Under the pieces are notes generated by a model, which saw nothing but the letters and a program-made list of their open reading frames with translations, ran no database searches and was not told the DNA's origin. This document shows, one piece after another, positions 4,858 through 49,071 of a stretch of DNA of 64,000 bases. The DNA lies in the IMG/VR virus record IMGVR_UViG_3300042554_002438. One strand, 5' to 3'. Within the stretch, counting starts at the first letter, position 1, and each line of letters starts with the position of its first letter. Source of the DNA: a virus (Duplodnaviria > Heunggongvirae > Uroviricota > Caudoviricetes). Position numbers and translations under genes: made by a program.

Positions 4858-5067
4858 ATGAGAATAATAATCAAAGAATTACCAAAGATAAATCACATAT
4901 ATCTATTTGATCAAACAATGCGCCCACTCTTTATGGACATTGTAAGTAAAAGGAATACAAAATCTTATATAAAAAAAATGATAAAAAAGTACGATATTAT
5001 TGATTTTGATTTTGTTTCTGCGATAGATTTATCAAATACTACCGATAGTTTTAGGGGCCATATTTGA
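4858..5067 (+). CDS. hypothetical protein
   Basis: 69 aa ORF filling an otherwise empty gap; 17-nt convergent overlap with the LRR gene. Confidence 0.4.
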   Translation: MRIIIKELPKINHIYLFDQTMRPLFMDIVSKRNTKSYIKKMIKKYDIIDFDFVSAIDLSNTTDSFRGHI

Positions 5068-6724
5068 TAATAGAAACAGTACCATTGCTGTTATTTTCCA
5101 TAATTTGCTTGGTTTCTTGGCTGATTTTTGTGTCATCAATACAGATTGCGACAATATGAGGTAATTTACTCAATCCAACTGGTATTTTATCCAACTTAAG
5201 GTTCATATGAACATCCACGAGAAACAAATCATTACAGTTTGTTATATCCTCTTTTATTTCCCTTAAATCGCAACTCGATGCGGTTAATCTAACTAGTTTT
5301 TTAAGTTTACCGATGTTAGCGGGTAGTTGTTTGAGTTTTTGGTTATTATCCAAAACCAACTCAGTCAATTTTTCACATTCACCAAGATCGCCAATTTCTC
5401 TGATATCACATCCAGCACAATCAAGATACTCCAAAGATTTTAACTCGGAGAACCACTCAGGTACTGAGGTAATTTTCTTGTTGTTTCTAAATTTAATCTT
5501 TTTTAGGTTTTTCAAGTCTTTAATCGACTCTGGTAAAAAAGTTATACCACAGTCACTTAAATCAAGACTTTTTATACTAGTAATCTCACCTATTTTTTCA
5601 AGATATTCCGATTCAATTTTATGACCAGAAAAATCAACGGTTTCTGGTTTAGATTCCTTGAATATTTTGATGATCTCATCTCCAAAGCCAAGATTCAATA
5701 AATATTTAATATCATCAACCTGTTTGTTGTTTTTCTTTTGGCGATACGCTAAGACACGCTTAATGATGTAGTTTCTAAAATACAATTTAATATCTTTATT
5801 GTTGAAAAGAAATTCATTGATGTTTATACTTTTATCGTTCGCATCCATATATTGATTATCCTCAAAATGGAATTGTAGGCGATATTCGGGGTGTTTTGAT
5901 ATGGCTTTTTTGGAACCATACCCTTTCTTAATTAAAACGAATAATTCACCTCGGCTATGATAACTATCAAACATATTACCATAACGAGTACCAGCAGTGC
6001 ACCAGGTTGTGTATTTACCAAACTCAATATTTGCTTGGCGATCATGGGTGATTACTATAACCCATTCACTATTTTCAAAAACAAGTTCAGCTTTACCCTC
6101 GACTTTCTTATTATCGACAAAATTTTGGATACAGGTTATTTCTTTATGGTCTAAAGTATGAATCGAATCATCGCCAGTATCGGTACTCATATATGGTTTA
6201 ACCATATTAACAAATTCATTGATGTCTTTAAATCGATTAATATCGCGATTCTCAACAGAAAGTACATTTGTTTTCTTTAAGAATGAAAATACCTCTAGTG
6301 CTTCAATAACTTTAGATTGCAAATCCTCAAAAAAGTTTTGGTATTCTGGTCTTATCTCAGCGACCGAATTTTCTTTGCTTGCTAGATAAGCATCATCAAT
6401 TCTATCTCTAATGATATTTTTATACAAGTTAATAAACCAACTAACGTATTCTTTATTATGGCTTGGGTCACACTCAACAAAAAAGTTAAATAATAACTCC
6501 ATTGGGGTTTTACCTTCCAAATATGTACCGTTTCTTTGATATTGGTTGCGATAAAACTCCATAAATAAATTATCACCGTCATACATTTTAACAGAGTCAA
6601 CAACAAACTCTTTATCTGGGACTACATGTTTACCATAGATATTTTTATCAACGGCCTTTTTATGATATTTCTTAAAGATATCAAAAACGTACTCTAATCG
6701 TGTTTTCTTGTCCTGTTCAGTCAT
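5051..6724 (-). CDS. leucine-rich repeat protein with an N-terminal phage WCT-motif domain
   Basis: About 8 C-terminal LRRs (LDLSDCGITFLPESIKDLKNLKKI; LVLDNNQKLKQLPANIGKLKKLVRL); N-terminal TTWCTAG...GELFVLI...YRLQFHF. Confidence 0.88.
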   Translation of the reverse strand: MTEQDKKTRLEYVFDIFKKYHKKAVDKNIYGKHVVPDKEFVVDSVKMYDGDNLFMEFYRNQYQRNGTYLEGKTPMELLFNFFVECDPSHNKEYVSWFINLYKNIIRDRIDDAYLASKENSVAEIRPEYQNFFEDLQSKVIEALEVFSFLKKTNVLSVENRDINRFKDINEFVNMVKPYMSTDTGDDSIHTLDHKEITCIQNFVDNKKVEGKAELVFENSEWVIVITHDRQANIEFGKYTTWCTAGTRYGNMFDSYHSRGELFVLIKKGYGSKKAISKHPEYRLQFHFEDNQYMDANDKSININEFLFNNKDIKLYFRNYIIKRVLAYRQKKNNKQVDDIKYLLNLGFGDEIIKIFKESKPETVDFSGHKIESEYLEKIGEITSIKSLDLSDCGITFLPESIKDLKNLKKIKFRNNKKITSVPEWFSELKSLEYLDCAGCDIREIGDLGECEKLTELVLDNNQKLKQLPANIGKLKKLVRLTASSCDLREIKEDITNCNDLFLVDVHMNLKLDKIPVGLSKLPHIVAICIDDTKISQETKQIMENNSNGTVSIIKYGP

Positions 6725-12157: not shown

Positions 12158-12174
12158 ACTTTGATTTATTTCAG

Positions 12175-12205
12175 CAAATATAAGGAAGAATTTTTAATAA
12201 ACAAA
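12175..12205 (-). promoter_or_regulatory. Bacteroidota sigmaA-type promoter
   Basis: Minus strand TTTG-N19-TATATTTG, 17 nt upstream of ATG 12157. Confidence 0.7.
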
Positions 12206-12231
12206 AAAAAATGGGGGAAATTTCCCCCATT
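12203..12231 (-). terminator. intrinsic terminator of hsp20
   Basis: Palindrome AATGGGGGAAA|TTTCCCCCATT (12210-12231) followed by a U tract on the minus strand. Confidence 0.85.
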
Positions 12232-12613
12232 ATTTAATCTCGACAGTCACACTTTTTGTTTCTTCTTTTTTTCTCAATGGTACTTTGATTTTAAGTAACC
12301 CATTTTCCATTTTAGCTTCAGTTTTACTCAGATCGTGTGAGCTTGATAAGTAGTAACTGTATGAATTATCAACATAGCGCTTAACAAAACCTTCAGCGTT
12401 TTTAATATTAGTTTTAACAATTAATGTCCTACCAGAAACCTCAATTGATAAATGTTCTTTATCCAATCCTGGTAAAGGTAATTCCGTTAAAAACTCCTTG
12501 TCGCTTGGAATGTCATAAGATGTTCTAAAATCCTCATTGAAGATGTTAAATAATTCATCAAAGCTTTGCCATAAATTCTTTTGGCTTCTCATGTTTGTTC
12601 TTAGTGTGTTCAT
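12230..12613 (-). CDS. small heat-shock protein (Hsp20/alpha-crystallin)
   Basis: ELPLPGLDKEHLSIEV...AKMENGLLKIKVP. Confidence 0.92.
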   Translation of the reverse strand: MNTLRTNMRSQKNLWQSFDELFNIFNEDFRTSYDIPSDKEFLTELPLPGLDKEHLSIEVSGRTLIVKTNIKNAEGFVKRYVDNSYSYYLSSSHDLSKTEAKMENGLLKIKVPLRKKEETKSVTVEIK

Positions 12614-12665: not shown

Positions 12666-12743
12666 TGCCAAATTAATTTAAAAGACATTTTGTCTTAATT
12701 TGGTTAATTTAAATAAAAAAGGACTGACAAAATGCCAGTCCTT
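12666..12743. promoter_or_regulatory. two GACA-N3-TG(T/C)C palindromes upstream of hsp20; possible operator
   Basis: AAGACA-ttt-TGTCTT (12682-12696) inside the CCAAATTA/TAATTTGG inverted repeat; CTGACA-aaa-TGCCAG (12724-12738); TGCCA half site at 12666. Confidence 0.45.
12715..12743 (-). terminator. intrinsic terminator closing the TROVE-ncRNA unit
   Basis: Minus strand AAGGACTGGCA-ttt-TGTCAGTCCTT followed by TTTTATTT. Confidence 0.75.
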
Positions 12744-12749
12744 AATTTC

Positions 12750-12809
12750 TGAGTGGGGGTCTATTGTATTTGGCTTTTCAATTTAAATAACAATTGCTGT
12801 AACCACTCA
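12750..12809 (-). ncRNA. candidate structured small RNA, unit 1 (Y-RNA-like?)
   Basis: Terminal stem UGAGUGG/CCACUCA, internal loop with UUACAGCA, inner stem AUUGU(U)AUUU/AAAUACAAU. Confidence 0.6.
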
Positions 12810-12887
12810 CATTAAATTCGAGGTACTATCGGAATCGTTTGAATCTTAAAGTGATCCGTCCTAGCTGGGTAAAACTTCCTTAGCTAA

Positions 12888-12975
12888 GGGAAGAGTTGGT
12901 TATGGCATCCGAAGATCCATAAACCTTTCTGTATAGCATAATTAATATTTAGTTAATTTTGCTGCAATTATTCCC
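12888..12975 (-). ncRNA. candidate structured small RNA, unit 2 (Y-RNA-like?)
   Basis: Terminal stem GGGAA/UUCCC, UUGCAGCAA near the 5' end, internal hairpin GGUUUAUGGAUC-UUCG-GAUGCCAUAACC (cUUCGg tetraloop, 12898-12925). Confidence 0.65.
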
Positions 12976-12989
12976 AATACCTCAATATT

Positions 12990-14390
12990 TTAAGCTGTAA
13001 TAGGCTCGTAACGTGCACTATGTACAGTTTTATTCATGATGCTGATTGGTGACATATCCTCACCAGTCAACAATGATTTTAAAATTGCTGGAGAAAACCC
13101 ACTCACCAATGCAGTACCGTTGTCGGTAGTCTGAACTGGGTAGTTTCCACCATTTCTGCTTTGAATGTTCCAGAATACCAATTTTGGCATTGTGTAACCA
13201 GCGGACTCGTATTGTTCACGAATCATATCCAAAGCGCTGTTTTTATAACGAGTTGCTGAATTGAACTCCATATCTGACATAATCAGAATAGTTGTTGGCA
13301 TCTCAGACTCTGGTAAGCTGAATTTTTTAGCTTGATTCAAGATCAAATTAAAAACCGCTTCCAAATTTGTACTCATACCCCAGTCAGCTCTCGCCAATTG
13401 CATGTGGCGATCACTTAAGTTACCGTTAAGGTATTGCAATTGTGGGTTTTCACTAAAAGTTATGAAAGCGTCTTTAAACTTACCTTCATTTCTTTCTGAA
13501 ATGTAAAGACCCAAAGAGATACAAACATCCATACATGTAACGTTAGCGTTACCACCAGCTGGTGAACTCATTGATCCAGATACATCGCATACTGGTAAAA
13601 CTCGCTCATTGTTACCTTCCATGTAATTAGGGAGTGAAGCCCATTGCTTCATAGCCATGGTTTTGTCCCCTCTAACTAATGTTTTCAACACATCATATGG
13701 ATATACCGCAGATGCGTTTACCTTAGTATCGCCAGTTTTGTAGGCTGTAAAACGTTCAGCATCGTGTTTACCAAATGCTTTAGTATAACGAGCCATAGCA
13801 ACAGATGGTACGTGTTCATATGTAACAACACCCCATTGATTTGAGCACATAAGTTGTTCAACCACCTTGGTTTTTTCAACCAACATCTTACGATATTGTT
13901 TAGGTGATAGCTTCATATAACGCTCCAATGCGATTGCTTCTTTACCTTTACGAGGCATCCATTTAGCGCAAAGACCATTATTTTCGTTAAGAGCATTAAC
14001 GATAAGGTTTTTTGCCTGGGTATCCAATGAGGTGCCAAATAACACTAAAAGATCGTCCCAACGTCCATATTCTGGAACGTATGATAGGTTTTTAGCCAAA
14101 GCCTCGTTATGGTTTTCAACCAAATAAAGCATTAAATCCTTGAAAATTTGACGCTCACCCGCACCACCACGAACGTCACGAGCCCAGAACATAGTTCTAA
14201 GAGCGGTTAATGGACTTTCGTTGAAAGCTTTTGAAAAGTTAGCGATTAATCTTCCCTTATCTTGACCACGCATCGCACCGATGGTGAAAAATAAATCAAC
14301 ACAAGCGTTCAATGATGAACTGTTAGTAACCATTCCGTTTTCGGTTACATTGTCTCTTGTTCTAAGAGCATTTACTAATGAGTTTGCCAT
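12990..14390 (-). CDS. TROVE/Ro60-like protein with a vWA domain (DUF2828 type)
   Basis: TENG...SSSLNACVDLFF, FWARDVRGGAGER, EYGRWDDL, AKWMPR, VNASAVYPYD, CDVSGSM (MIDAS DxSxS), IMSDMEF, VFWN, LVSGFSP. Confidence 0.92.
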   Translation of the reverse strand: MANSLVNALRTRDNVTENGMVTNSSSLNACVDLFFTIGAMRGQDKGRLIANFSKAFNESPLTALRTMFWARDVRGGAGERQIFKDLMLYLVENHNEALAKNLSYVPEYGRWDDLLVLFGTSLDTQAKNLIVNALNENNGLCAKWMPRKGKEAIALERYMKLSPKQYRKMLVEKTKVVEQLMCSNQWGVVTYEHVPSVAMARYTKAFGKHDAERFTAYKTGDTKVNASAVYPYDVLKTLVRGDKTMAMKQWASLPNYMEGNNERVLPVCDVSGSMSSPAGGNANVTCMDVCISLGLYISERNEGKFKDAFITFSENPQLQYLNGNLSDRHMQLARADWGMSTNLEAVFNLILNQAKKFSLPESEMPTTILIMSDMEFNSATRYKNSALDMIREQYESAGYTMPKLVFWNIQSRNGGNYPVQTTDNGTALVSGFSPAILKSLLTGEDMSPISIMNKTVHSARYEPITA

Positions 14391-14412
14391 ACAATAGGTT
14401 TTAATTAGGGTA

Positions 14413-14444
14413 CAAAAGTAATAAAGATTTTTTAAATAGTCAAG
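14413..14444 (-). promoter_or_regulatory. Bacteroidota sigmaA-type promoter for the TROVE gene
   Basis: Minus strand CTTG-N20-TACTTTTG, 22 nt upstream of ATG 14390. Confidence 0.65.
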
Positions 14445-24736: not shown

Positions 24737-26248
24737 TTAATATGTGATTAATTCTTTAAATCTGTTAATTATTGATTTGATTTCGTTTAAAGATTCGGCA
24801 ACATTGGTTTCACCAGGGGTTGCTGCACCTTCAACGTTTGGAGCATATTTTTCAATCTGTTGAATAATAAACATTGATGTTTCTCTAATAACCTTTTGAA
24901 ATGCTTTAACTTTATCTTTATTTTGTTTCCATAAAGCTAAATAGTTAATTGAGTGTTCGATAGGAAACTCATAAGTTTTCATCACAGTATAAGCAACAGC
25001 TTCAGCATGTAATTCTTTTTCCTCAGATGAAAATTCTCTACCAATAAATAATTTACCGTTAGCTAAACCTTTATTGGCTGGTTGGTGTAAGATCTCATGC
25101 GCTAATTCATGAACAAATGTTGATAATAACCCAGCTCCAACGCTATTTGTTAATAACTCAATGTGACCACCTTTACTAACACCTCTTGCACCACCTAAAT
25201 CGTCTGATTGTTTAATTTTAATACCATTGTCTTCTGAAAAGGCTTTTAGGGCCTCAATCATCACTCTTGATTTCTCATCCTCGGTATCATCATCATTAAA
25301 CCATTTTGGTGGTTCAGGTGCATTAATTTGTTCCACACCAGGTATTGGTTGTACATTTGCATTATCATAAATCGCAACTTCCGTGAATTGGCTTGTACCT
25401 TTGAATTTAACATATCCCTTTTTCAAAGCCCAGTTCCAAAACGCATTGTGCTTTTCTTTTGGGATTGGGTTATTGGGGTCTGTAATTTTAAATGTTCCAC
25501 TTTCAGCGGCATACTCTTGTGGTGATTTCGGATGGTCTTTAATGATTCTAGCAACGTTACTTGCCAAACTACCAGTTCCACCTGGTTTTAAAATCATAAT
25601 TTTTCTAGCATCTGGTTTAGGTTCATAGCCCCTACCCAACCAATATGGTACCGAACCGAATTCTTTAGCACCTTTGGTTGCTTGTAACCATATCATGAAT
25701 GTATTGAAAAAACTATATGAATATCTACCAGTATCTAAAATATAAGCCTTAGCTGCTTTGTTAAACTCAGCGATATCATCCAATAATTTTTGATCATCCA
25801 AACTATCTGCTAACTGATCAATATAGTCGTTAATTAAGTCCAAAGTAACTTTTCCAGATTTTGATTTAACAAACTCAAGAGTACCTTTTACAGTCTCCAA
25901 AAATTCTTTAGCTTTAACCAAAGATTCAACATCATCAAATTTGGTTACCTCTGGTCTACCAGAAATGTCAGCACCTAATATTTGATTAGCAGCTTTAACA
26001 GCATCATTAGCCATTTTAGCTATCTCATCAGCACTTTTGAATCTATCATTCCAGTACCAATGCTTTTCATCGTTATCCCAAGCAGCCCCATACTTTTTGA
26101 ATACGTCTTTGGTTTTAAACGTTTCATTACCAGCTTCTCTTTTATCTGGATTATCCGATACAACAAAAATTCTTTTTTGTCCGTATCTATCGGTTGTACT
26201 TTTTAACCCAATGGCCTCATTAGTCGTTGAATCAATTACTTTAAACAT
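24737..26248 (-). CDS. ArdC-like polyvalent protein: DUF5710-like N-terminus, ArdC-N ssDNA-binding domain, HEXXH MPTase/IrrE-like domain
   Basis: TFKTKDVFKKYGAAWDNDEKHWY; YSYSFFNTFMIWLQ...W...G..PK..ARKIMILKP; FVHELAHEILH...ELHAEAVAYTV. Confidence 0.78.
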   Translation of the reverse strand: MFKVIDSTTNEAIGLKSTTDRYGQKRIFVVSDNPDKREAGNETFKTKDVFKKYGAAWDNDEKHWYWNDRFKSADEIAKMANDAVKAANQILGADISGRPEVTKFDDVESLVKAKEFLETVKGTLEFVKSKSGKVTLDLINDYIDQLADSLDDQKLLDDIAEFNKAAKAYILDTGRYSYSFFNTFMIWLQATKGAKEFGSVPYWLGRGYEPKPDARKIMILKPGGTGSLASNVARIIKDHPKSPQEYAAESGTFKITDPNNPIPKEKHNAFWNWALKKGYVKFKGTSQFTEVAIYDNANVQPIPGVEQINAPEPPKWFNDDDTEDEKSRVMIEALKAFSEDNGIKIKQSDDLGGARGVSKGGHIELLTNSVGAGLLSTFVHELAHEILHQPANKGLANGKLFIGREFSSEEKELHAEAVAYTVMKTYEFPIEHSINYLALWKQNKDKVKAFQKVIRETSMFIIQQIEKYAPNVEGAATPGETNVAESLNEIKSIINRFKELITY

Positions 26249-26252
26249 TTTC

Positions 26253-26594
26253 TTATTTTTCTAATTCATTTATTTTATTTTCTAATTCTTCTTTTGGTGG
26301 AATAATGAACTGATTTTGAAAACTCATCATCTGTTCTTGTCTATTTAATTTAGACATTTCATTATTTAATTTGTTGTAAACACCAAATTCAGCTTTATAC
26401 TGAATAATTAACATGTTATTTTCGGTTGGTATTAAAGTTTGTAAACTATCATTTTGAACCTGAAGAATATCACGTTCTTTAGTTAACCTTTTAATCTTAC
26501 CGTTTTTACTGCAATTTTGCATGGACATAACTAGTATTAAAAAAATAACACTAATCATTCCATACTTATTAAAAAAATTTTTAATTTTTTCCAT
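26253..26594 (-). CDS. membrane-anchored coiled-coil protein, spanin-like
   Basis: TM ISVIFLILVMSMQNCS then a coiled coil; ATATTTAT 22 nt upstream (26617-26624). Confidence 0.55.
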   Translation of the reverse strand: MEKIKNFFNKYGMISVIFLILVMSMQNCSKNGKIKRLTKERDILQVQNDSLQTLIPTENNMLIIQYKAEFGVYNKLNNEMSKLNRQEQMMSFQNQFIIPPKEELENKINELEK

Positions 26595-26632
26595 AATTTA
26601 GTATTTTGCCTTATTAATAAATATTTAGAGTT

Positions 26633-27430
26633 TTATAAGAGTTCAAATAATTCCTTAGAATAGAACCTTAATTTTTTAATCGCCTTTTCTTTTATCTGGC
26701 GAACACGCTCTTTTGTTAGGTTAAGTTCCTCAGATATATCCTGTAACGTCAAGGGCTCCCCATCTAAACCAAAATACTTGGTTACAACGTATTGCTCAGA
26801 ATCCGTTAAATTAGATAAAACTATTTTAAGTCTATTAATTAACGAATCATGATCGTCAGAAAAAATCAAATCGGGTCTTTTCGAATTAACATCCTCAATC
26901 ACATCGTACATCGAATTACCTTCATCGTCAAAAGGTGCGTCTAAGTATGTTATTGTTGGTAAACCAAGAATACTGGTTGGTGTTTCGTTCTCGTCCGCAC
27001 TATACTCTTTTGGAGTCTCTTTGCGCAACTTATTCATTTCGTTAATAATGTTCACTGGTAGACGAATTGCCCTAGAATTTTCGTGTAAAGATTGCAACAT
27101 ACTTTGTTTTACCCACCAAACCGCATAAGAAAGGAATCTAACGTTGGTTTGGTCATAATTGTAGCGCTCTGCGGCTTTAATTAAACCATAATTACCCTCA
27201 GATATCAAATCAGATAATGATAAACCTTGATTCTGATATTGTTTTGCCATTGATATGACAAATCTTAAATTAGAATAAATTAACAAATCTTTCGACTTTT
27301 GGCATCCAGTTTTTATTTTATCAATTAGTTTAAATTCTTCCTCACGTGTTAGTGCTGGGTATTTTCTAACATCATAAAGGTAAAGATTAATTTCGGATTG
27401 GTCAATCCAGTGCGAGGTATCTTTGATCAT
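26633..27430 (-). CDS. rpoD: sigma70-family RNA polymerase sigma factor, Bacteroidota sigmaA-like (no region 1.1)
   Basis: NLRFVISMAKQYQNQGLSLSDLISEGNYGLIKAAERY...RFLSYAVWWVKQS...IRLP; region 4 TLQDISEELNLTKERVRQIKEKAIKKLR. Confidence 0.95.
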   Translation of the reverse strand: MIKDTSHWIDQSEINLYLYDVRKYPALTREEEFKLIDKIKTGCQKSKDLLIYSNLRFVISMAKQYQNQGLSLSDLISEGNYGLIKAAERYNYDQTNVRFLSYAVWWVKQSMLQSLHENSRAIRLPVNIINEMNKLRKETPKEYSADENETPTSILGLPTITYLDAPFDDEGNSMYDVIEDVNSKRPDLIFSDDHDSLINRLKIVLSNLTDSEQYVVTKYFGLDGEPLTLQDISEELNLTKERVRQIKEKAIKKLRFYSKELFELL

Positions 27431-41406: not shown

Positions 41407-44400
41407 TTATAGTGTTGCTGTATTAATATTAATCGCTTTTACGTTAAAAATTGCGGTCGCATCTGCAACATCAGTTTTAACATCAGTTACTGAAACAATA
41501 CCATTAAGATTAATAAATATTGTTCTATTAGCGGTCACATTTTTCAACGTGATTACTCTAGTTTCTAAATTAGCTGTTTGAACAAATGTTGTCTGAACTG
41601 TATTTGTATTTATCACTTGATTATTAACAAATAATGGTGTTGCATCAACAAAAGCAGAGCCAAATTTTGTTTGTTTTCTTTGAGTCGTGTATGTTATTTC
41701 AACCTCAAAGTTTGTTTCTGGTATAACATCATACTTAGTATCAAATACAGTGTTTTTAGTTACGCTTGTAGACGTGATTTTTTGTGCTAACGTATTATCA
41801 GTTTGTTTAATAGTTAATGTGGCATTAGCTTGTCCATTTTGTGTAACAACAACTCTTACAGTATAAGGTAATATTTCAATATCTTCTGGTGTAAAATTCG
41901 CAGTTTGAGTTAAACCTTGTTGTCTATCTAATTTATCAATATCAGTATCAAATAAAACACCAAATATTGTTGTAGCTGTTTTCCCACATGGGTTTGAAAT
42001 TTTTAATTTTCCTATAAACTCGCCCGTTAATGGGTAACCAACTTCATCTTTTTGCGGAAAATAATCCATTATAACGTCATTACCAATAACCCTAAAATCA
42101 ACTAAACCTGTTGTGTTAGCAGAAATTCTATTTGGGTCGGTCGCATCATAAAATTTATTTAAACCAGATATTAGTTTATTATTAATTGTGGATCCACTAA
42201 ATGACCTACTGGTAAATCCACTTTTTAACGTAAGATTATCTCTAAAAAAATGAAGTGATTTTTTAACTGAATTAGTTAAACTTTCTATCTTTGATTCAAA
42301 TACAGTAACTCGTGTTCTATCTTTAAAAAATTTAAAATTATTTACCAAACAAAAATCAGACTCAGACCAATTAGTAGTATCTTCAAAAGGTTGAGCTGGA
42401 TAAGTACCCAATGGGGAACCCCCAATAAACTTATATAAAACACCTCTATTAACTGTATATTTGTAACCTATGTATTTTGATGTGTTATCATAAGTTATAC
42501 CAGTTGTTTCATCCGCAATAAACAACGTTGGGTTATTTTTTTCAGTATATCTACCAATTCTTTCAAACAATGGATAAATTGAAGATGAATCCGTTAAAAA
42601 TGGATGATAATAAGTAAGATAATTAAACGAATTTAACGGAAATGATGGTCTTAGTTTTATATTTGTTTTATTTAATCTGGTCTGATTAAAATAATCCTTA
42701 TAATTATCGGTTTCGTAATAAGTATTTGATTCTAAAAGTGCTGGATAATAAACTTCCCAGTCAACCCCAACAACTGGCGGTGTGCCAGCTGCGGCTGTAC
42801 TTATTTTTCTATAAGTTAAATCATTATGTTTTATAATGGCACCTGGTGCGTATAGCGTCCCAGAATTATATGCCGAATACGGTAGATAATATGGAACGTA
42901 TGCGTCTGGCCCGTAATAACGACCAGAAAATGAACTAAAATATGATCTTAATATTTTTTTATTAATATTTACATCGTATTCGTTATAGGACACGTATGAA
43001 TCATCCATAAAACAATAACCATTTATTAGAACATTGTTCCATCTACCACCAAATGTTACACCAGAAACAGTTGTACCAGTTGATATAAATGGTATACCAA
43101 ATTCACTCACAGGTAGTGTTTTAGGTAATCTTGCTGCCGTTGTTGGTATCGCAACATACCCATCTAACGGAAACCAAGATCCACCAACAGATTCGACCCA
43201 GTTGGTTAAACCACCAAGTGATTTGTGATCAAATAAATCGTTAACGCTAGTTATACGCCTCCATTCGGTTGTACCAGTTGACCCACTTGTCGCAAGATAT
43301 GGCGCGGCATTTGTATGGTCTTTTTTTGCCACAAAAAATCTATACACGGTTGGGGCTAATACTGTTTCATCGGTAACTCCAGACAAAACAAAATCACCTT
43401 TAAAATACTTTTTAGTTGAATCCCATTTTAGCGGCTTTTGATATATGAACCTAAAAAATTCGTCACTACCCCCAGGATTTGGATATGAACCTAAAATTAT
43501 ATCCCCAAAATTATATTCACTTACAACCGTTGGGTCATAGCTTATAAAATTTTTATTAATATAATCCGAAACATTTGGGTTACTTGTTGTTAGTAACGGT
43601 GAGTGTTCATAACCCCATGGTGTGAAATTAGTTGGGTTATATTTTTCAATTTCAATAAAACATGATCTCGACCCCCTTGGTCTATAAATTTCGTGTATTT
43701 CACCTTGGACGAGTGTCGAAGCTGACGTATCTTCTAATTTATAGCAATGATCAATGTTAATATCGTTAACACACACATATAACCTATAAACCGAATTTGT
43801 TTGTACAGTTTGACCCGTTGGGCTATCCACCACAATTTTATAGTCATCAATATTAACTTTTACAATATCATTTAATTCATAGTTAACTATTTGGGCATTA
43901 AATTCTGGTACGACATCAAGTATTTTTTTATAAATTTCAGTGTTATACACATCATTCTCTAATTTGTATAAGCTATATGATGACGTACCTAATGAATTAA
44001 AAGAGTACCTTTTTTTGTTTTTAATTTCACTAATTATAGGGTTTCCATAATTAAACAGAGTATAATCATTTAATCCTAAATCATAACCTTTAAAGCTACC
44101 TAGAGTATCTTTGGTTGCCGTACCAAGTTCAACATTGTTGTAAAAACTATACTTTGGTGAGTAAGTAAATTCTCTGTTATGCGTGTTTTGCCTAATTCTT
44201 ACATTTTTACCGATTGTTATCGCATTTGTGACATCATTATTATCAGTTTGTCTAACAGAATTACCCAAATAATAATCACTAAAATTTAATTCGTGTTCGA
44301 TAGTTGCGGTTTTTACACCTATGTTTTTACCGCCAGAAACAGAAACAAGGCCTGTTGTTGAAAAATTATCACTTTTACTTCTAATAGTAAAGGTGAAATT

Positions 44401-47400
44401 AACCTTATCAAAATTTATCTTTTTATCGTATTCACTCGAGTCAAAAACAATGTTATTTTGAGAATTGGTTTCAAAATAAGATAAAAATAATTTATTGTAA
44501 TAATAATTAGGATCGATCGAATGCTCAATATTTAAAAAAGGAACATTAACATATTTTTTTTCTGTTAATCTAAGTATTAAATTGTTGGTATCTAAATTTG
44601 ATAAATTATAAATTGGTTTAATCGATAAACCATCTAAGTACTCACCTCTGGCCGAAAATCCAGAATTTAATAACACTCTAAATCTAGGGTCATTTAATTG
44701 ATTAAAAGAAGCCTCATCGACCTCTTCATGAATATAATCTATTTCTTCATATCTAGATAATGTGCAAGCTAAATCTATTGGTTCAATGACTAAATAAATT
44801 TTTTCACCAGAATTAAAAAATCCAGTATATTCAAAAACATATTGTCTTAAGTTTGCATCGTCAGATCCATTAAATGTAAATGACTGGGTATCATAAATAA
44901 AACCTAAAGAATTTATCAATTTAATGTTTATGGTTTGATTTATATTTTCAATAGATTCGAAATATAAATCAAATTTAAAACTTAAATAACTATTTTTTGC
45001 GACTAAATAATGCCCTGGTGTTGTGTTTACCAAACTTAACTCATCACCAATTGTTGTAAAATTTTCATTTAAAGATTGAATTGATATATAGTTGTTTGAA
45101 TTTGGCTGTAAAAGAATACTATTTTCTAAAGTGTGAATGAACGCCCCATCATCATTTAAAGTATAAAATGGGCCTATTTTTGTTTGGTCTAACCCATAAA
45201 AACCCTCAAAGTTTACAGTCACAGAATCTGATATAAATAACTCACCGTTTATAATATTATCCTTTACTTTATATGTTGTTTGTGGCGTTGCCCCACTAAA
45301 TATGTGGCCCAAATTAAGTGATTTTGTTAGATTTACAGAATATGAAGCTCTACTTGGATCTAGTTTAATTTTTGAAATATAAGCTGGATCAATATGCATA
45401 AAAGGATCCGTTTTTGTTCTATCCTGATATCTTTCATACATACCACCAGTGGTTCCAGTTGAAATTGTTGATAAATTAACGGTCACGCCAGTAGTTCCAG
45501 GACTCACAAAAGACGCTGAATTTGCTGTTGCTATGTGTTTTAAACCAGTTGGGGTTGTAATTGGATATGTTGTACCCGTTGCCTCAAATGTATCCCCAGT
45601 AACTAAATATATTTTACTACCAACAACCAAATTTTCTTTATTTGTTGGATGTATGTTTGCGATAATTTCTCCCTTATAATATGTAAATCCAGTTGCCCAC
45701 GAAAATCTTTTTTCATATGGGGTAGCCCACTTTGATATTTCACCATAAATTAATCCTGATGGTCTTAATGGGGTGTGGTTCATACTATAACCATAAAACC
45801 TAGGTTGTTTAATAGTTTGTGTGATACCTTCTTCATCATTATAAGTCCTAAATGTATTATGTACTAAAGCTGGTGTAATTGTCCTACCAGTAAAATCATA
45901 GTAACAGACATGTGGCCTTGGTGGTGGGCAATCAAAATTAACCCGAATACCCAAATAGGCTAAACCACGTCCAATTGAGTTTATATAATATGATCTTTCA
46001 ATTGATCTAACATCTAAAGACAAGGTATCCGCAAACGTTATAGTTCTAGAATCAACATCAATTGGTATGTGTTCCCATATCATTCTGGTATCACCAGATG
46101 CGTTTGTTACTGTTGCTTTATTGGGTGGGTATCTACTTTCAATTGTTGACCCAGTTCCAGCCGTATGTATGTCGGGAATTGAACCCGTATCATTAAACAT
46201 GTACCTAGTATTCAATCTATATAACTTACTATTGTATACAACAAAAACACCATATCTTTGAGTTGATGACGCATAGCCAGATTGATTTATATTACCATTA
46301 AATAAGCTATCATCCCCGTAGTCAATACCGCTTTGCCAAATATGGAAACTACCCTCACTTTCATCGCAATACTCAAACATCGTATAGTGAACACCAAAAT
46401 ATTCATTAATAGTTGGGTCTGTTCCAGTTATTTTGGTGCCTGGTTTACCAGAAATATTAAACGTTATTGGTTCACCGTCAATTTTGGCCCCAAGTTTTCC
46501 GACATTTTCTGTAACATTTGTCGTGCCAAGATAAACAGGTTTAAGTGCTTTTTGTTGAAATTCAGAACCATCTGTACCTAACCAAGATACATCATTATTT
46601 AAACCATGTTTATATGCAAATTTATTATCTAAAAAAGTTGAATTTTGTATTTTTTTACCAGCATTAACAACGGATGTTGCTGGAACAAATTGCTGTATTA
46701 ATTTAACCCAAGAAGAATCAAATTTATTTAAAAACTCTAAACTTCTCATGCTATCAATTGGCGTGGTTGTTGTTTTTAAATAATCAAAATAAATCTTTGA
46801 TAAAGTTGGATATGTTTTAATCGTTTTTCTATTTTTTGGATTTATAAACGTGTCTAACGATTTTTTAATAAATTGATTAAATGTTAAATTTGTTGAGTCA
46901 AATTTATTTAATATATTCAAATCGGAATTGACAATCCCTATATTTCTAGCGTATTGCCTATAAACAGGAATATCAAATATTCGATTTGATGATAAATAAA
47001 CCTCAAGTTCTTTAGAATTAATTGATAATCTAATGTCATTTGATTCGTACTCAGTAAAACCATTTCTATCGTCTTTGTAATAGGTTGTTGGTAATTCGTT
47101 GTATACCCAACTTTTTACGTTATCGATTGTTCTATATACATCGAAAAGAAAAACGTTTTCATATTTTTTATACTGATTAACATATCTTTGGCCAAAATCG
47201 AATCTACCAATATTAGACTTATCTTCTGTGATATAGCCCCCGTCTTCTTGATATCTAACGTTTGTTGGTACGGTTGGAAAACCTTTTGAATCAAAAGGTA
47301 CTCTTTGTAATAAAATTTCTGGATCGTCAATAATTGTCTGGCCATAAATTTTATTTAAAACATCTGGTGTGTTTAAAGGTCTTTCGGCCAAATAAATATA

Positions 47401-49071
47401 CTCGTTTAACTCAAATATTTCATCAGGTAAACCCACCAGTCTCAAAATAAACTCGATAGATTTTCTGGTACCTTTTGATTTGTATAGATAAAATGAGTTA
47501 ATTAAGATTCTTCTCCATAATTCAATGTCAATTTCCGCTGGTGTTGTGCCTTTTTCAACATCATCAAGTTCAGTTGAAAACAAAGAATCGATTAAAGTAT
47601 TTTCATCTTCAATTTCAAATGTATTAAAACCAAGCATTGTTGCGTAGTTTTTAATTAAAAGATCTGGAACGTTTTCGATTTTATCATAACTAACATTTCG
47701 CATAAAAGTTATGCCATCAATATATCTTTTAATATCGTCAAACGTTTTACCGTATAATTGAAATAATAAATTGGCTTTACGATCGCTAGTATCAAATTCT
47801 TTTAAGGAGTCGGTTGTTAAAAATCTTGAGATTAAATTTGTTTTAATACTATCATACGAATCAGCAAAATCATTTAAAGTCGTTGTGTAGTCATCAAATT
47901 TACTACTAAACATATCGATGTTAAAATCATCGTACATTGGGAAAATTAAAGTTTCTTTAACAGTTCGAACTTGCCCACTGTCATCCTCTGATGGATAAAC
48001 GAACTCACTAATATATTCACCAGTATTTGGATCTTTATTTAAAAGAAACGAAGCTAAATCTGATAAATTATTAAAAAAATCATTGTATACTTTACTTTTA
48101 GGTTTTATATAAAATCTTACGTTAACAACATTGTTTACATCAACAATATCTCCAAATGGATTACCATCTACGGTTAATCGAATACCAGTCGCGTCATCAT
48201 TATTGTTTTGTGGAAATTGCGCGGAAATTATGGGATACTCAACACCGTTGTAATATAAAACATATTCTTTATGTGTTTTAGTAAAATTTCTGTATTTTGT
48301 TATAGTTTCACTATTATCCAAAGTACTTCCAGAACTATTATATTCAATACCATATGGGTTAAATAATCCATAAAGATTTACTTTAAAAGAAGATCTATTT
48401 TCAAGTGGGTATGTTGCATAATTAGAAACAGATGGTGTTGTTATAGATATTGGTTCGGCTTTTATTGCTCCTGGAAAATTATTGTATATTTCAATTATAA
48501 CGTTTTTTAATCTTTCTTTTAAAGATGAAAATAAAACATAATTATCTAATTTTCTTCTGTCAAATAAAACTTTTACCGTTAAGTTTTCGGTTACTTTTTG
48601 TTTTAAAGCTTCCACGTATTCTTTACCCTCAAAATAGGGTAGATTTCTTTGTGCTATACTTTCAACTGTAAAACTTTTTACAGCATCGTTTTGTGCGGCC
48701 TCATTTACTTGAATTTGTAATTGTGATGCCTGCGCCCCTTGTTGTACGCTTTTTTGAATTGAAAAGTTACCTAGGGTAAAAAAAGGATCACCTTGTATTT
48801 CGTCTTTGGCGTTCGCAAATTGTAAACCAACTAATTTACTGCCAAAAGTATCGCTACCAAAAGCACCTATTTTACCTTGTATTGTCCTATATCTCAAGGC
48901 TCTTTCATATTGTACAAAAGATGAGCATGGTACATATTTAACGTCACCATTTATGATATAAGTGCGATATCCGTCACAACCAAGTGCTTTTGACGCATCA
49001 ATTGCTTCTTGTGGTGTATCGTACAGATCCCTAATTATCTGATTATTCGTTGTAAAACTAAGATCAGCCAT
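41407..49071 (-). CDS. giant baseplate wedge protein (T4 gp7/P2 gpI-like)
   Basis: 2554 aa; NVPDLLIKNYATMLGF and ELWRRILINSFYLYKSKGTRKSIEFILRLVG. Confidence 0.7.
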   Translation of the reverse strand: MADLSFTTNNQIIRDLYDTPQEAIDASKALGCDGYRTYIINGDVKYVPCSSFVQYERALRYRTIQGKIGAFGSDTFGSKLVGLQFANAKDEIQGDPFFTLGNFSIQKSVQQGAQASQLQIQVNEAAQNDAVKSFTVESIAQRNLPYFEGKEYVEALKQKVTENLTVKVLFDRRKLDNYVLFSSLKERLKNVIIEIYNNFPGAIKAEPISITTPSVSNYATYPLENRSSFKVNLYGLFNPYGIEYNSSGSTLDNSETITKYRNFTKTHKEYVLYYNGVEYPIISAQFPQNNNDDATGIRLTVDGNPFGDIVDVNNVVNVRFYIKPKSKVYNDFFNNLSDLASFLLNKDPNTGEYISEFVYPSEDDSGQVRTVKETLIFPMYDDFNIDMFSSKFDDYTTTLNDFADSYDSIKTNLISRFLTTDSLKEFDTSDRKANLLFQLYGKTFDDIKRYIDGITFMRNVSYDKIENVPDLLIKNYATMLGFNTFEIEDENTLIDSLFSTELDDVEKGTTPAEIDIELWRRILINSFYLYKSKGTRKSIEFILRLVGLPDEIFELNEYIYLAERPLNTPDVLNKIYGQTIIDDPEILLQRVPFDSKGFPTVPTNVRYQEDGGYITEDKSNIGRFDFGQRYVNQYKKYENVFLFDVYRTIDNVKSWVYNELPTTYYKDDRNGFTEYESNDIRLSINSKELEVYLSSNRIFDIPVYRQYARNIGIVNSDLNILNKFDSTNLTFNQFIKKSLDTFINPKNRKTIKTYPTLSKIYFDYLKTTTTPIDSMRSLEFLNKFDSSWVKLIQQFVPATSVVNAGKKIQNSTFLDNKFAYKHGLNNDVSWLGTDGSEFQQKALKPVYLGTTNVTENVGKLGAKIDGEPITFNISGKPGTKITGTDPTINEYFGVHYTMFEYCDESEGSFHIWQSGIDYGDDSLFNGNINQSGYASSTQRYGVFVVYNSKLYRLNTRYMFNDTGSIPDIHTAGTGSTIESRYPPNKATVTNASGDTRMIWEHIPIDVDSRTITFADTLSLDVRSIERSYYINSIGRGLAYLGIRVNFDCPPPRPHVCYYDFTGRTITPALVHNTFRTYNDEEGITQTIKQPRFYGYSMNHTPLRPSGLIYGEISKWATPYEKRFSWATGFTYYKGEIIANIHPTNKENLVVGSKIYLVTGDTFEATGTTYPITTPTGLKHIATANSASFVSPGTTGVTVNLSTISTGTTGGMYERYQDRTKTDPFMHIDPAYISKIKLDPSRASYSVNLTKSLNLGHIFSGATPQTTYKVKDNIINGELFISDSVTVNFEGFYGLDQTKIGPFYTLNDDGAFIHTLENSILLQPNSNNYISIQSLNENFTTIGDELSLVNTTPGHYLVAKNSYLSFKFDLYFESIENINQTINIKLINSLGFIYDTQSFTFNGSDDANLRQYVFEYTGFFNSGEKIYLVIEPIDLACTLSRYEEIDYIHEEVDEASFNQLNDPRFRVLLNSGFSARGEYLDGLSIKPIYNLSNLDTNNLILRLTEKKYVNVPFLNIEHSIDPNYYYNKLFLSYFETNSQNNIVFDSSEYDKKINFDKVNFTFTIRSKSDNFSTTGLVSVSGGKNIGVKTATIEHELNFSDYYLGNSVRQTDNNDVTNAITIGKNVRIRQNTHNREFTYSPKYSFYNNVELGTATKDTLGSFKGYDLGLNDYTLFNYGNPIISEIKNKKRYSFNSLGTSSYSLYKLENDVYNTEIYKKILDVVPEFNAQIVNYELNDIVKVNIDDYKIVVDSPTGQTVQTNSVYRLYVCVNDINIDHCYKLEDTSASTLVQGEIHEIYRPRGSRSCFIEIEKYNPTNFTPWGYEHSPLLTTSNPNVSDYINKNFISYDPTVVSEYNFGDIILGSYPNPGGSDEFFRFIYQKPLKWDSTKKYFKGDFVLSGVTDETVLAPTVYRFFVAKKDHTNAAPYLATSGSTGTTEWRRITSVNDLFDHKSLGGLTNWVESVGGSWFPLDGYVAIPTTAARLPKTLPVSEFGIPFISTGTTVSGVTFGGRWNNVLINGYCFMDDSYVSYNEYDVNINKKILRSYFSSFSGRYYGPDAYVPYYLPYSAYNSGTLYAPGAIIKHNDLTYRKISTAAAGTPPVVGVDWEVYYPALLESNTYYETDNYKDYFNQTRLNKTNIKLRPSFPLNSFNYLTYYHPFLTDSSSIYPLFERIGRYTEKNNPTLFIADETTGITYDNTSKYIGYKYTVNRGVLYKFIGGSPLGTYPAQPFEDTTNWSESDFCLVNNFKFFKDRTRVTVFESKIESLTNSVKKSLHFFRDNLTLKSGFTSRSFSGSTINNKLISGLNKFYDATDPNRISANTTGLVDFRVIGNDVIMDYFPQKDEVGYPLTGEFIGKLKISNPCGKTATTIFGVLFDTDIDKLDRQQGLTQTANFTPEDIEILPYTVRVVVTQNGQANATLTIKQTDNTLAQKITSTSVTKNTVFDTKYDVIPETNFEVEITYTTQRKQTKFGSAFVDATPLFVNNQVINTNTVQTTFVQTANLETRVITLKNVTANRTIFINLNGIVSVTDVKTDVADATAIFNVKAININTATL

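What the first reader, a model, noticed from the sequence alone, without database searches (positions are those of the whole stretch)
12715..14444. Ro60/TROVE-like gene followed by two structured RNAs sharing a UURCAGCAA motif: candidate phage ribonucleoprotein system
Seen: after the TROVE/vWA stop lies a 270-nt ORF-free region closed by a strong terminator (12715-12743). It holds two units whose 5' and 3' ends pair: 12975-12888 (GGGAA/UUCCC) and 12809-12750 (UGAGUGG/CCACUCA). Each carries UU(A/G)CAGCAA just inside its 5' stem, 165 nt apart, and otherwise they differ in sequence. Unit 2 has a cUUCGg-capped hairpin, which fixes the strand. The spacer holds weaker hairpins and a T-loop-like UUCAAAC. 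A host-type promoter heads the unit. Established: Ro60/TROVE proteins bind Y RNAs through a bulged helix formed by the RNA ends, and bacterial Y RNA genes usually flank rsr, often with rtcB (not seen in this window). Inference: a non-canonical Y-like RNA family partnered with DUF2828-type proteins, processed from the same transcript and possibly acting in RNA repair, decay or counter-defence. I know of no description of this motif.
Basis: partly seen in the sequence, partly recalled or inferred. Interest (0 to 1): 0.88.

Follow-up and report, generated by a model that had tools for sequence, protein, structure and literature searches.

The report
Partner RNAs of Ro60-like phage protein
A freshwater phage gene for a ring-shaped Ro60-like protein is followed by two small folded RNAs of a widespread family that travels with this protein in phages, bacteria and archaea. 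The family is absent from Rfam and closely resembles the 'Class I' RNAs thought unique to social amoebae.

Summary
The gene at 12990-14390 (-) encodes a DUF2828/DUF7788 protein. Its predicted structure (pLDDT 94.6) matches full-length Ro60/TROVE proteins best.

The 270-nt ORF-free tail holds two RNAs and a strong terminator:
- U2 spans 12810-12748.

Both RNAs carry one 'handle': a closing helix, then UU(G/A)CAGCAA, then a conserved unpaired G after the 3' strand.

A covariance model built from 34 short modules found 60 further copies that were not used to build it. These lie beside DUF2828 genes in two phages and 35 of 80 bacterial or archaeal loci. All 60 are on the gene's strand, and 99.5% of helix cells are paired, with double changes at all 7 pairs. 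No Rfam family matches.

The handle matches the published Dictyostelium Class I RNA design (stem, CCUUACAGCAA, 3' CUG). Metatranscriptome contigs from four runs cover the RNA region.

The best reading is a Y-RNA-like partner of a Ro60-like protein. Binding and function are inferred, not shown. A preprint shows that the probable Felix O1-type orthologue counters the ppl defence system without the phage's RNAs.

This scan has already found the same pairing on other DNA (336 notes).

The parts
14413..14443 (-). Promoter-like site TTG-N20-TACTTTTG (Bacteroidota -33/-7 type), ending 23 nt upstream of the ATG
   Evidence: Pattern count on the gene strand is 10 against 3.4 +/- 1.9 in shuffles, and several sites sit just upstream of ORF starts. 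This is a consensus match only.
12990..14390 (-). Gene for a 466-aa DUF2828 + DUF7788 protein with a Ro60-like ring and a vWA domain carrying a MIDAS motif
   Evidence: Pfam E 2.6e-35 and 2.3e-51. PHROG 850 'RNA-binding protein'. AF2 model pLDDT 94.6. The top 11 PDB matches and the top 5 Swiss-Prot matches are Ro60/TROVE. D269, S271, S273, T341 and D373 are invariant.
12820..12983 (-). U1, the long handle RNA (164 nt): outer helix, GA bulge, handle helix, UUGCAGCAA, structured cargo
   Evidence: The ends are conserved in L001-L009, L073 and L175-L180. RNAalifold consensus on 6 relatives gives 22 pairs, 11 with double changes.
12976..12983 (-). U1 outer helix, 5' strand (GAGGUAUU). It pairs with 12820-12828.
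   Evidence: Eight of nine outer pairs change in relatives while staying paired, seven of them on both sides. Other registers are GUGGUA/UACCAC, UUGGUUU/AAACCAA and AAGGUG/CACCUU.
12970..12975 (-). U1 handle helix, 5' strand (G-GGAAU). GGAAU pairs with AUUCC at 12831-12835.
   Evidence: Invariant in the six closest relatives. It is compensated in L059 (AGUAUG/CAUAC) and extended to 7 bp in L005.
12959..12967 (-). U1 handle motif UUGCAGCAA
   Evidence: Conserved next to the 5' strand of the closing helix in most of the 80 related viral loci listed.
12898..12925 (-). U1 cargo hairpin capped by cUUCGg
   Evidence: Present in the MFE fold. It covaries with L001 and L175.
12862..12893 (-). U1 cargo: candidate H-type pseudoknot. 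Helix X is CUUCC/GGAAG. Helix Y is UAGCU/AGCUA, whose 5' strand lies in the loop of X.
   Evidence: Both helices change on both sides across nine relatives. X also appears as CUCCC/GGGGG, UCAUC/GAUGA, CUAAC/GUUAG, CUUUC/GAAAG and UUACC/GGUAA. Y also appears as UGGC/GCCA, UGGU/ACCA and UAGC/GCUA. These were read by eye on an alignment.
12841..12857 (-). U1 cargo hairpin GGAUC-ACUUUAA-GAUUC
   Evidence: It covaries as GAAUG/CAUUC in L002 and UGAGC/GUUCA in L180.
12820..12835 (-). U1 3' side: AUUCC (handle helix), GA bulge holding the conserved G (12830-12829), UAGUACCUC (outer helix)
   Evidence: ATTCCGA is conserved in relatives.
12748..12810 (-). U2, the short handle RNA (about 62 nt): helix UGAGUGG/CCACUCA, UUACAGCAA (12802-12794), A-rich open loop, unpaired G (12749)
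   Evidence: Model R1 scores 42.7 bits, E 2.3e-8 (this sequence was in the training set). Orthologous copies occur in L001, L003, L005, L175 and L180.
12712..12743 (-). Intrinsic terminator closing the unit
   Evidence: An 11-bp stem, 3-nt loop and T run. Energy -15.3 kcal/mol, z -7.1. A terminator follows the RNAs in the relatives too.

Best explanation
The gene and its 3' tail form one transcription unit of a freshwater phage, probably one that infects a Bacteroidota host.

The gene encodes a Ro60-like ring protein of the DUF2828/DUF7788 family. The tail encodes two RNAs, U1 (164 nt) and U2 (about 62 nt), that share a conserved 'handle'. The handle is a closing helix formed by the RNA's two ends, the single-stranded motif U-U-(G/A)-C-A-G-C-A-A directly after the 5' strand, an A-rich stretch before the 3' strand, and an unpaired G after it.

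I propose that the handle docks each RNA on the protein, as the terminal stem and GNCGAA/GGUCCGA motif dock Y RNAs on Ro60. The variable cargo is a pseudoknot plus hairpins in U1 and an open A-rich loop in U2. It would tether other factors or control access to the ring. The particle would then act on host RNA metabolism or host defence during infection.

Shown here:
- the protein's predicted fold;
- conservation of the RNAs;
- covariation of the helix;
- strict linkage to the gene and its strand across very distant genomes;
- presence of the RNA region in metatranscriptome assemblies.

Inferred: protein-RNA binding, processing of U1 and U2 out of the mRNA tail, and the biological role.
For: Protein:
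- The AF2 model has pLDDT 94.6 and pTM 0.93.
- The top 11 Foldseek PDB matches are full-length Ro60/TROVE, led by phage phiLo 9kop at E 1.4e-8, then Xenopus Ro60 at TM up to 0.63.
- The top 5 Swiss-Prot models are Ro60 of frog, mouse, human, Deinococcus and worm.
- The MIDAS residues are invariant.

RNA:
- 34 short modules are 99.2% paired, with double changes at 7 of 7 pairs. The covariation score is 1.06 against 0.25 in shuffles, and slid registers pair at 45% or less.
- Model R1 found 60 copies outside its training set, all on the gene's strand.
- These comprise eight modules from two phages: three from Vibrio phage BUCT194 and five from a Leptolyngbya phage whose protein is 21% identical.
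- They also include 52 hits in 35 of 80 bacterial or archaeal loci, most within about 700 nt upstream of the gene.
- These 60 copies are 99.5% paired, with 146 double-change cells against 33.8 +/- 6.4 in shuffles.
- In five whole phage genomes (516 kb), all 13 hits with E < 0.01 lie beside the gene.
- In 80 viral loci, 80 of 80 hits are on the gene's strand.
- U1's terminal helices covary.

Expression hint: contigs of four metatranscriptome runs cover 12759-12988. In two runs nothing else of the 2.1-kb stretch is covered.

Context elsewhere: RtcB, RNA ligase or tRNA arrays sit near the gene in Listeria, Erwinia and Felix O1-type phages.
Against: - No binding data exist for any DUF2828 protein with these RNAs.
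- The protein lacks a Pfam TROVE match, and its profile reaches Ro60 sequences only marginally (E about 0.04).
- In the PhageMaP preprint, Bas63 gp130 rescued T7 on ppl hosts when expressed alone. At least that activity therefore does not need the phage's RNAs. gp130 is a Felix O1-type, Ro60-like protein. Its orthology to this protein is inferred, not checked.
- In Dictyostelium the look-alike Class I RNA DdR-21 binds an RRM protein directly (PMC7919456).
- R1 found no module near the gene in four phages and 45 of 80 cellular loci.
- RNA-library contigs can contain DNA and cannot give RNA ends.
Confidence: 0.7

Rival explanations
1. The modules are stable RNAs whose partner is a different protein, such as a host or phage RRM-type protein or a tRNA-processing enzyme. 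On this reading the 7-bp helix, the following U and the unpaired 3' G mimic a tRNA acceptor stem. The modules would sit near DUF2828 genes only because both belong to the same RNA-metabolism or tRNA gene neighbourhood.
For: - In Dictyostelium the look-alike Class I RNA binds the RRM protein Rnp1A directly.
- In Felix O1-type phages the modules are interspersed with tRNA genes.
- Long modules in other phages carry T-arm and D-arm look-alikes.
- Bas63 gp130 works without the phage's RNAs.
Against: - This window has no tRNA gene at all, yet it keeps the gene-RNA pair.
- The pair persists across genomes that share nothing else.
- In 35 of 80 cellular loci the modules lie within a few hundred bases of this one gene and always on its strand.
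- The protein's fold belongs to a family whose known partners have this architecture: a terminal stem plus a 5' motif.
Confidence: 0.15
2. The elements are cis-acting parts of the mRNA. They would be protein-binding operators or stabilisers through which the DUF2828 protein controls its own message, not separate RNAs.
For: - They are always on the gene's strand and usually directly before or after the ORF.
- No separate promoter is seen before U1.
- One metatranscriptome contig runs from the ORF into the RNAs, covering 12759-13062.
Against: - Up to five tandem copies occur.
- Copies lie up to about 2.6 kb from the gene, or inside tRNA arrays.
- They occur upstream in some genomes and downstream in others.
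- Long forms carry elaborate cargo.
- In three RNA runs the contig stops at 12987/12988, just after the stop codon. This is a weak hint only.
- The amoebal look-alikes are free-standing abundant RNAs.
Confidence: 0.1
3. The pattern is chance, an AT-rich hairpin artefact, or merely a set of transcription terminators.
For: The window's own motif count is only mildly above expectation, at 5 against 1.5. The sequence is AT-rich.
Against: - Model E-values reach 1e-7 to 1e-9 in independent genomes.
- Hits on the gene's strand against the opposite strand number 52 to 0 and 80 to 0.
- Pairing is 99.5% with many compensatory changes.
- A separate canonical terminator follows the RNAs.
Confidence: 0.01

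Closest known systems
Ro60 (Rsr) with Y RNAs: bacterial and mycobacteriophage YrlA/YrlB (Chen et al. 2014, PMC4201824; Rfam RF02553) and Thermus phage phiLo Ro60 with Yrl1/Yrl2 (PMC12135203; PDB 9KOP, 9L5Y)
   Same: - A ring protein with a vWA/MIDAS domain.
- One to several small RNAs encoded within a few kb on the same strand.
- Each RNA is closed by a helix of its two ends, with a short conserved motif just inside the 5' strand.
- There is one long and one or more short RNAs per genome.
- In other phages the long RNA carries permuted tRNA-like arms, as YrlA does.
   Different: - The protein belongs to a different sequence family (DUF2828/DUF7788, no Pfam TROVE match).
- The RNA motif is ACAGCAA, not GNCGAA or GGUCCGA.
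- The Rfam YrlA model does not match.
- This window's RNAs have no tRNA-like domain.
- Binding has not been shown.
Class I RNAs of dictyostelid social amoebae (Aspegren 2004; Avesson 2011; Kjellin et al. 2021, PMC7919456)
   Same: The design is almost identical. A short stem joins the ends and starts with G. It is followed by the motif (CC)UUACAGCAA, a variable A-rich interior, and a 3' end of C-U-G after the stem. The length is about 60 nt. For example, DdR-21 in the paper's supplement can be set against U2 and the R1 consensus.
   Different: - Class I RNAs are free-standing eukaryotic genes with their own DUSE promoter and were reported as unique to Dictyostelia.
- Their known direct binder is an RRM protein.
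- No link to a Ro60-like protein has been reported.
- The spacing between stem and motif differs by one base.
- Whether the likeness reflects common descent was not tested.
Bas63 gp130, the anti-ppl counter-defence protein of a Felix O1-type coliphage (PhageMaP preprint, 10.1101/2024.10.10.617714)
   Same: It is a Ro60-like protein by structure, encoded directly upstream of the phage's tRNA array. That is where I find four handle RNAs in the Felix O1-type phage BPS17L1. The authors guessed that some 'tRNA genes' there might be Y RNAs.
   Different: - Orthology to this window's protein (about 41% identity to Felix O1-type homologues) is inferred. The Bas63 record itself was not examined.
- The RNAs were not identified in that work.
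- gp130 acted without them in T7.

Membership tests
Ro60/TROVE proteins | Ring of HEAT-like helical repeats followed by a vWA domain | tested here: met
   The AF2 model has pLDDT 94.6. Full-length Foldseek matches to Ro60/TROVE structures give TM 0.39-0.63 and E 1e-8 to 5e-6, and to Ro60 models TM 0.49-0.65. Both sides of the model comparison are predictions.
Ro60/TROVE proteins | Sequence signature of the TROVE domain (Pfam PF05731) | tested here: not met
   Pfam reports only DUF2828 and DUF7788. A single-sequence search of PDB chains finds no Ro60. A profile of 108 homologues reaches Ro60 only at E 0.04-0.08, over the MIDAS stretch.
Ro60/TROVE proteins | MIDAS motif DxSxS ... T ... D in the vWA domain | tested here: met
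   D269, S271, S273, T341 and D373 are invariant in 108 homologues. The stretch aligns to the Ro60 DVSASM motif.
Ro60/TROVE proteins | Binds Y RNA on the ring surface and misfolded RNA ends in the cavity | not testable with these tools
   The complex predictor offered here takes proteins only.
Y RNA / YrlA (Rfam RF02553) | Long stem formed by the RNA's 5' and 3' ends | tested here: met
   U1 has 9 + 5 bp with a GA bulge, and it covaries. U2 has a 7-bp helix.
Y RNA / YrlA (Rfam RF02553) | Ro-binding motif GNCGAAN0-1G (bacteria) or GGUCCGA (animals) near the 5' end | tested here: not met
   The conserved motif at that place is UU(G/A)CAGCAA.
Y RNA / YrlA (Rfam RF02553) | Match to the Rfam covariance model | tested here: not met
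   No Rfam hit at E <= 10 falls in U1, and none is credible in the tail as a whole. One chance-level DapZ match (E 6.6, 18.4 bits against a gathering score of 56) overlaps U2 and the terminator. Only a partial YrlA hit (E 5e-4) appears, in Sinorhizobium phage phiM7.
Y RNA / YrlA (Rfam RF02553) | tRNA-like T and D arms in at least one RNA of the locus | tested here: not met
   ARAGORN and Rfam find nothing tRNA-like in the window. Such arms are visible in long modules of BPS17L1, Kahlid and phiM7.
Y RNA / YrlA (Rfam RF02553) | Encoded within about 4 kb of the protein gene on the same strand | tested here: met
   U1 starts 7 nt after the stop codon. The 52 hits at cellular loci and the 80 at viral loci all lie on the gene's strand. 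The 60 hits largely overlap the 52.
Dictyostelid Class I RNAs | Short stem joining the 5' and 3' ends, with conserved G at the start and C-U-G after the stem | tested here: met
   In alignment A4, G at column 3 pairs with C at column 71 in 31 of 34 rows, and G at column 73 is invariant. U2 has G...C-A-G.
Dictyostelid Class I RNAs | 11-nt motif CCUUACAGCAA beside the 5' strand, with U3, C6, C9, A10 and A11 near-invariant | tested here: met
   U2 reads GGUUACAGCAA, matching positions 3-11. U1 reads AAUUGCAGCAA, keeping all five near-invariant positions. The motif text comes from the paper's supplement. The spacing to the stem differs by one base.
Dictyostelid Class I RNAs | Length 42-65 nt with a variable interior | tested here: inconclusive
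   U2 is about 62 nt by its helix ends, and U1 is 164 nt. True RNA ends are unknown.
Dictyostelid Class I RNAs | Free-standing gene with a DUSE promoter about 60 nt upstream, in Dictyostelia | tested here: not met
   The window is from a phage and the RNAs lie in the 3' tail of a protein gene. The only promoter-like site heads the ORF.
Dictyostelid Class I RNAs | Score with the published Class I covariance model, or Class I RNAs scored with model R1 | not tested
   Neither the published model nor amoebal genomes can be searched with these tools.

The most novel reading that the evidence does not exclude
The phage, bacterial and archaeal 'CAGCAA-handle' RNAs and the Class I RNAs of social amoebae are one ancient RNA family. 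Its general partner is the DUF2828 paralogue of Ro60. This would be a second, so far unrecognised Ro/Y-type ribonucleoprotein lineage spanning viruses and all three domains. Phages would use it to counter host defence.
Probability: 0.4. Interest if true: 0.9.

Novelty: new variant of a known kind. Interest (0 to 1): 0.8.

Why it matters
Ro60 and its Y RNAs form a classic but still poorly understood RNA-surveillance particle. Here a different protein family with the same fold is paired, in hundreds of phages and many cellular genomes, with an RNA family that has a different docking motif and is missing from Rfam.

- That gives DUF2828/DUF7788, a large 'unknown function' family annotated only as 'RNA-binding protein', a concrete and testable ligand.
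- It explains unannotated gaps and spurious mini-ORFs next to the gene in well-used phages such as Felix O1, P100/A511 and cluster L mycobacteriophages.
- It offers a lead on the 20-year-old puzzle of what Dictyostelium Class I RNAs are and whether they are really unique to amoebae.
- A Felix O1-type member has been reported to defeat a bacterial defence system. The RNAs may therefore belong to a counter-defence mechanism.

Tried and rejected
- Rfam at E <= 10 on the region and E <= 1 on 11 related loci showed no family over the modules.
- ARAGORN found no tRNA in the window.
- The MFE pairing of AGCA of the motif with UGCU is not conserved in relatives, so I treat the motif as single-stranded.
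- The first MAFFT alignments (A1, A3) misaligned the 3' strands. I re-anchored the references to make A4.
- My helix finder picks chance 6-bp helices within 300 nt for many random motif hits. I therefore used the covariance model for statistics, not the finder.
- R1 gave only weak hits at window 12161-12216 (+) and 26330-26383 (-). I judged these to be chance.
- TTRCAGCAA at 2147, 4310 and 8155 lies inside ORFs.
- R1 found no module near the gene in Enterococcus phage 21C1, Fusobacterium phage phiKSUM, Erwinia phage Kaldavass, Aeromonas phage Ah1 or Citrobacter phage Ci1, nor in 45 of 80 cellular loci. This is no proof of absence, because long forms escape the model.
- I hoped the three 'highly transcribed regions' of Listeria phage CKA15 were the modules. 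The only region with published coordinates maps to a ROOL RNA instead. That paper therefore gives no direct support.
- The parts of the 2.1-kb stretch without metatranscriptome cover say nothing.
- AlphaFold DB cluster hits came without organism names, so I could not tell whether Dictyostelium has a DUF2828 protein.
- Avesson 2011, which lists the four Class I-binding proteins, and the 2020 Ro60 review are not held.
- No RtcB or RNA ligase was found among the ORFs I scanned in the window.
Full report
**What is in the window**

On the minus strand, an ORF at 14390-12990 encodes a 466-aa protein with Pfam DUF2828 and DUF7788 (E 2.6e-35 and 2.3e-51) and PHROG 850 'RNA-binding protein'.

It is headed by TTG-N20-TACTTTTG at 14443-14413. 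This Bacteroidota-type promoter pattern occurs 10 times on the gene strand against 3.4 +/- 1.9 in shuffles.

After the stop codon (12992-12990) come about 270 ORF-free bases, then an 11-bp terminator hairpin with a T run (12743-12712). The tail folds better than all 200 shuffles (z -4.4).

All ORFs of 150 aa or more but one lie on the minus strand. Among them are a head maturation protease, a DnaB-like helicase and a ribonucleotide reductase. The same DNA occurs in lake, freshwater and river metagenomes. The source is therefore a freshwater phage.

**The protein**

With an alignment of 108 homologues, AlphaFold2 gives pLDDT 94.6 and pTM 0.93.

- The 11 best Foldseek matches in the PDB are all full-length Ro60/TROVE proteins. 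First is the Thermus phage phiLo protein (9kop, E 1.4e-8), followed by Xenopus and human Ro60 and Deinococcus Rsr.
- The five best Swiss-Prot models are Ro60 of frog, mouse, human, Deinococcus and C. elegans, followed by telomerase p80.
- The MIDAS residues D269, S271, S273, T341 and D373 are invariant.

At the sequence level the link to Ro60 is only marginal, at E about 0.04 over the MIDAS stretch. This is a Ro60-fold protein of a separate sequence family.

Homologues occur in 710 phage records, many annotated 'Ro-like RNA binding protein'. In the 1.8-billion-protein library there are 6,694 cluster representatives at E <= 0.001.

**The RNAs, corrected**

Downstream regions of 80 related viral loci show which parts are conserved.

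- GGAAU (12974-12970) pairs with AUUCC (12835-12831).
- A GA bulge follows.
- An outer helix (12983-12976 with 12828-12820) covaries freely.
- RNAalifold on six relatives gives 22 pairs, 11 of them with compensatory changes.
- More distant relatives keep the helix in other registers: GUGGUA/UACCAC, UUGGUUU/AAACCAA and AAGGUG/CACCUU.

U1 therefore spans 12983-12820 (164 nt). Its interior holds three elements, all with compensatory changes in nine relatives:
- a cUUCGg hairpin (12925-12898);
- a candidate H-type pseudoknot (12893-12862);
- a hairpin (12857-12841).

**The shared handle**

Both units, and every related module, have the same layout:
1. a closing helix, 7 bp in the short forms;
2. 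(U/A)(U/A)-ACAGCAA, or close variants, immediately after the 5' strand;
3. an A-rich run before the 3' strand;
4. an unpaired G one base after the helix.

In an anchored alignment of 34 short modules, CAGCAA and that G are invariant. The helix is 99.2% paired, with both-side changes at all seven pairs. The covariation score is 1.06 against 0.25 in shuffles, and slid registers pair at 45% or less. These 34 were chosen for having a helix, so the diversity is the evidence here, not the pairing.

**Independent tests**

I built covariance model R1 from those 34 modules.

- *Whole phage genomes.* In five genomes (516 kb), all 13 hits with E < 0.01 lie next to the DUF2828 gene.
- *Phages outside the training set.* R1 finds three modules just upstream of the gene in Vibrio phage BUCT194. 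It finds five tandem modules just downstream in a Leptolyngbya phage whose protein is only 21% identical (E down to 1.6e-7).
- *Cellular assemblies.* In 80 bacterial and archaeal loci that encode a homologue, R1 finds 52 hits at E <= 0.01 in 35 loci. All are on the gene's strand, most within about 700 nt upstream. Some of these contigs may be phages or prophages binned with the genome.
- *Pooled independent hits.* The 60 hits are 99.5% paired, with 146 double-change cells against 33.8 +/- 6.4 in shuffles.
- *Viral loci.* In the 80 viral loci, all 80 hits are on the gene's strand.

By eye and by the model, the modules also flank the gene in several other phages:
- Listeria phage WIL-1 (three, upstream);
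- Felix O1-type phage BPS17L1 (four, among the tRNA genes);
- mycobacteriophage Kahlid (three, downstream);
- a Staphylococcus phage (three);
- a Campylobacter phage (two);
- Sinorhizobium phage phiM7.

In several of these, one long module carries permuted T-arm and D-arm look-alikes, as YrlA does. This window's U1 does not.

**Expression**

Logan contigs from four metatranscriptome runs cover 12759-13062, 12764-12988, 12768-12987 and 12760-12987. In two runs nothing else of the 2.1-kb stretch is covered.

This shows the region is present in RNA libraries. It also gives a weak hint of an end just after the stop codon. It cannot prove transcription, ends or abundance.

**What is known**

Canonical Ro60 with Y RNAs is established in bacteria, mycobacteriophages and Thermus phage phiLo. 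There, a GNCGAA-type motif sits near the RNA's 5' end. The present RNAs occupy the same genomic and architectural niche but carry another motif, and no Rfam family matches them.

Earlier notes of this scan led me to compare them with Dictyostelium Class I RNAs. I checked this in the supplement of Kjellin et al. 2021. Class I RNAs have a G-initiated 6-bp stem, one spacer base, UUACAGCAA (11-nt motif CCUUACAGCAA), an A-rich interior, the 3' stem strand and then UG. This is essentially the handle. That paper reports Class I RNAs as unique to Dictyostelia.

Searches for the motif, DUF2828, DUF7788 and 'Ro-like' found no paper that describes these RNAs in phages or bacteria.

Two functional reports bear on the protein.
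- Bas63 gp130 is a Felix O1-type Ro60-like protein encoded just upstream of the tRNA array. It counters the ppl defence system and does so alone when moved into T7. The authors guessed at Y RNAs among the tRNA genes. Its orthology to this protein is inferred.

**Verdict**

The feature is real and non-random. It belongs to a large, conserved gene-RNA pairing.

The most likely mechanism is a Ro60/Y-RNA-like particle in which the handle docks the RNA on the ring. I put this at about 0.7. The main alternatives are that the RNAs have another partner or that they act in cis.

Relative to the literature I could search, this is a new variant of a known kind of system. This scan has already met the same pairing many times on other DNA.

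Noticed in passing
L081:2423-2974 (Listeria phage WIL-1, NC_025440.1 5308-5859): A ROOL RNA (Rfam RF03087; 87 bits, E 2.5e-16, just under the gathering score of 99.1) lies about 1 kb upstream of the DUF2828 gene, under a row of tiny annotated 'hypothetical proteins'. By megablast mapping it corresponds to CKA15 positions 26,236-26,727. That is the most highly transcribed 'unannotated' region reported in PMC12282133, which the authors did not identify.
   Followed up: partly
window 12862-12893 (-): A candidate H-type pseudoknot lies inside U1. The 5' strand of helix UAGCU/AGCUA sits in the loop of helix CUUCC/GGAAG. Both helices change on both sides in nine relatives.
   Followed up: partly
window 12987 (-), contig of metatranscriptome run X18: One RNA-library contig carries 17 nt identical to the 3' half of the terminator hairpin (12735-12719), joined directly 5' of U1. 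It could be a relative with a terminator in front of U1, a tandem copy of the unit, or an assembly artefact.
   Followed up: no
window 12759-12768 (-): Contigs of all four RNA runs stop 3-12 nt before the 3' strand of the U2 helix. This could be a processing site or just falling k-mer coverage.
   Followed up: no
L082:5386-5512; L087:5509-5631; L086:1331-1455 and 2575-2700: Long handle RNAs in Felix O1-type, mycobacterial and Sinorhizobium phages enclose T-arm then D-arm look-alikes (a permuted tRNA, as in YrlA). Only one of them gets even a partial Rfam YrlA hit.
   Followed up: partly
L083:5885-5999 (Citrobacter phage Ci1): A tRNA (55 bits) has its anticodon loop replaced by a 50-nt insert that contains CUACAGCAA. 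The encoded 3' end is GCCA.
   Followed up: partly
window 12230-12613 (-): The Hsp20-family gene right after the RNA unit is present in some close relatives and absent in others (L177-L179). In those relatives the terminator follows U1 directly and U2 is missing too.
   Followed up: partly
window 12161-12216 (+): A weak R1 hit (E 0.16) with UUUCAGCAAA lies on the opposite strand, next to a bidirectional terminator at 12210-12231. It is probably chance.
   Followed up: no
window 5051-6724 (-) and 41407-49071 (-): The phage encodes a 557-aa protein with leucine-rich repeats and a 2,554-aa ORF. Neither was examined further.
   Followed up: no
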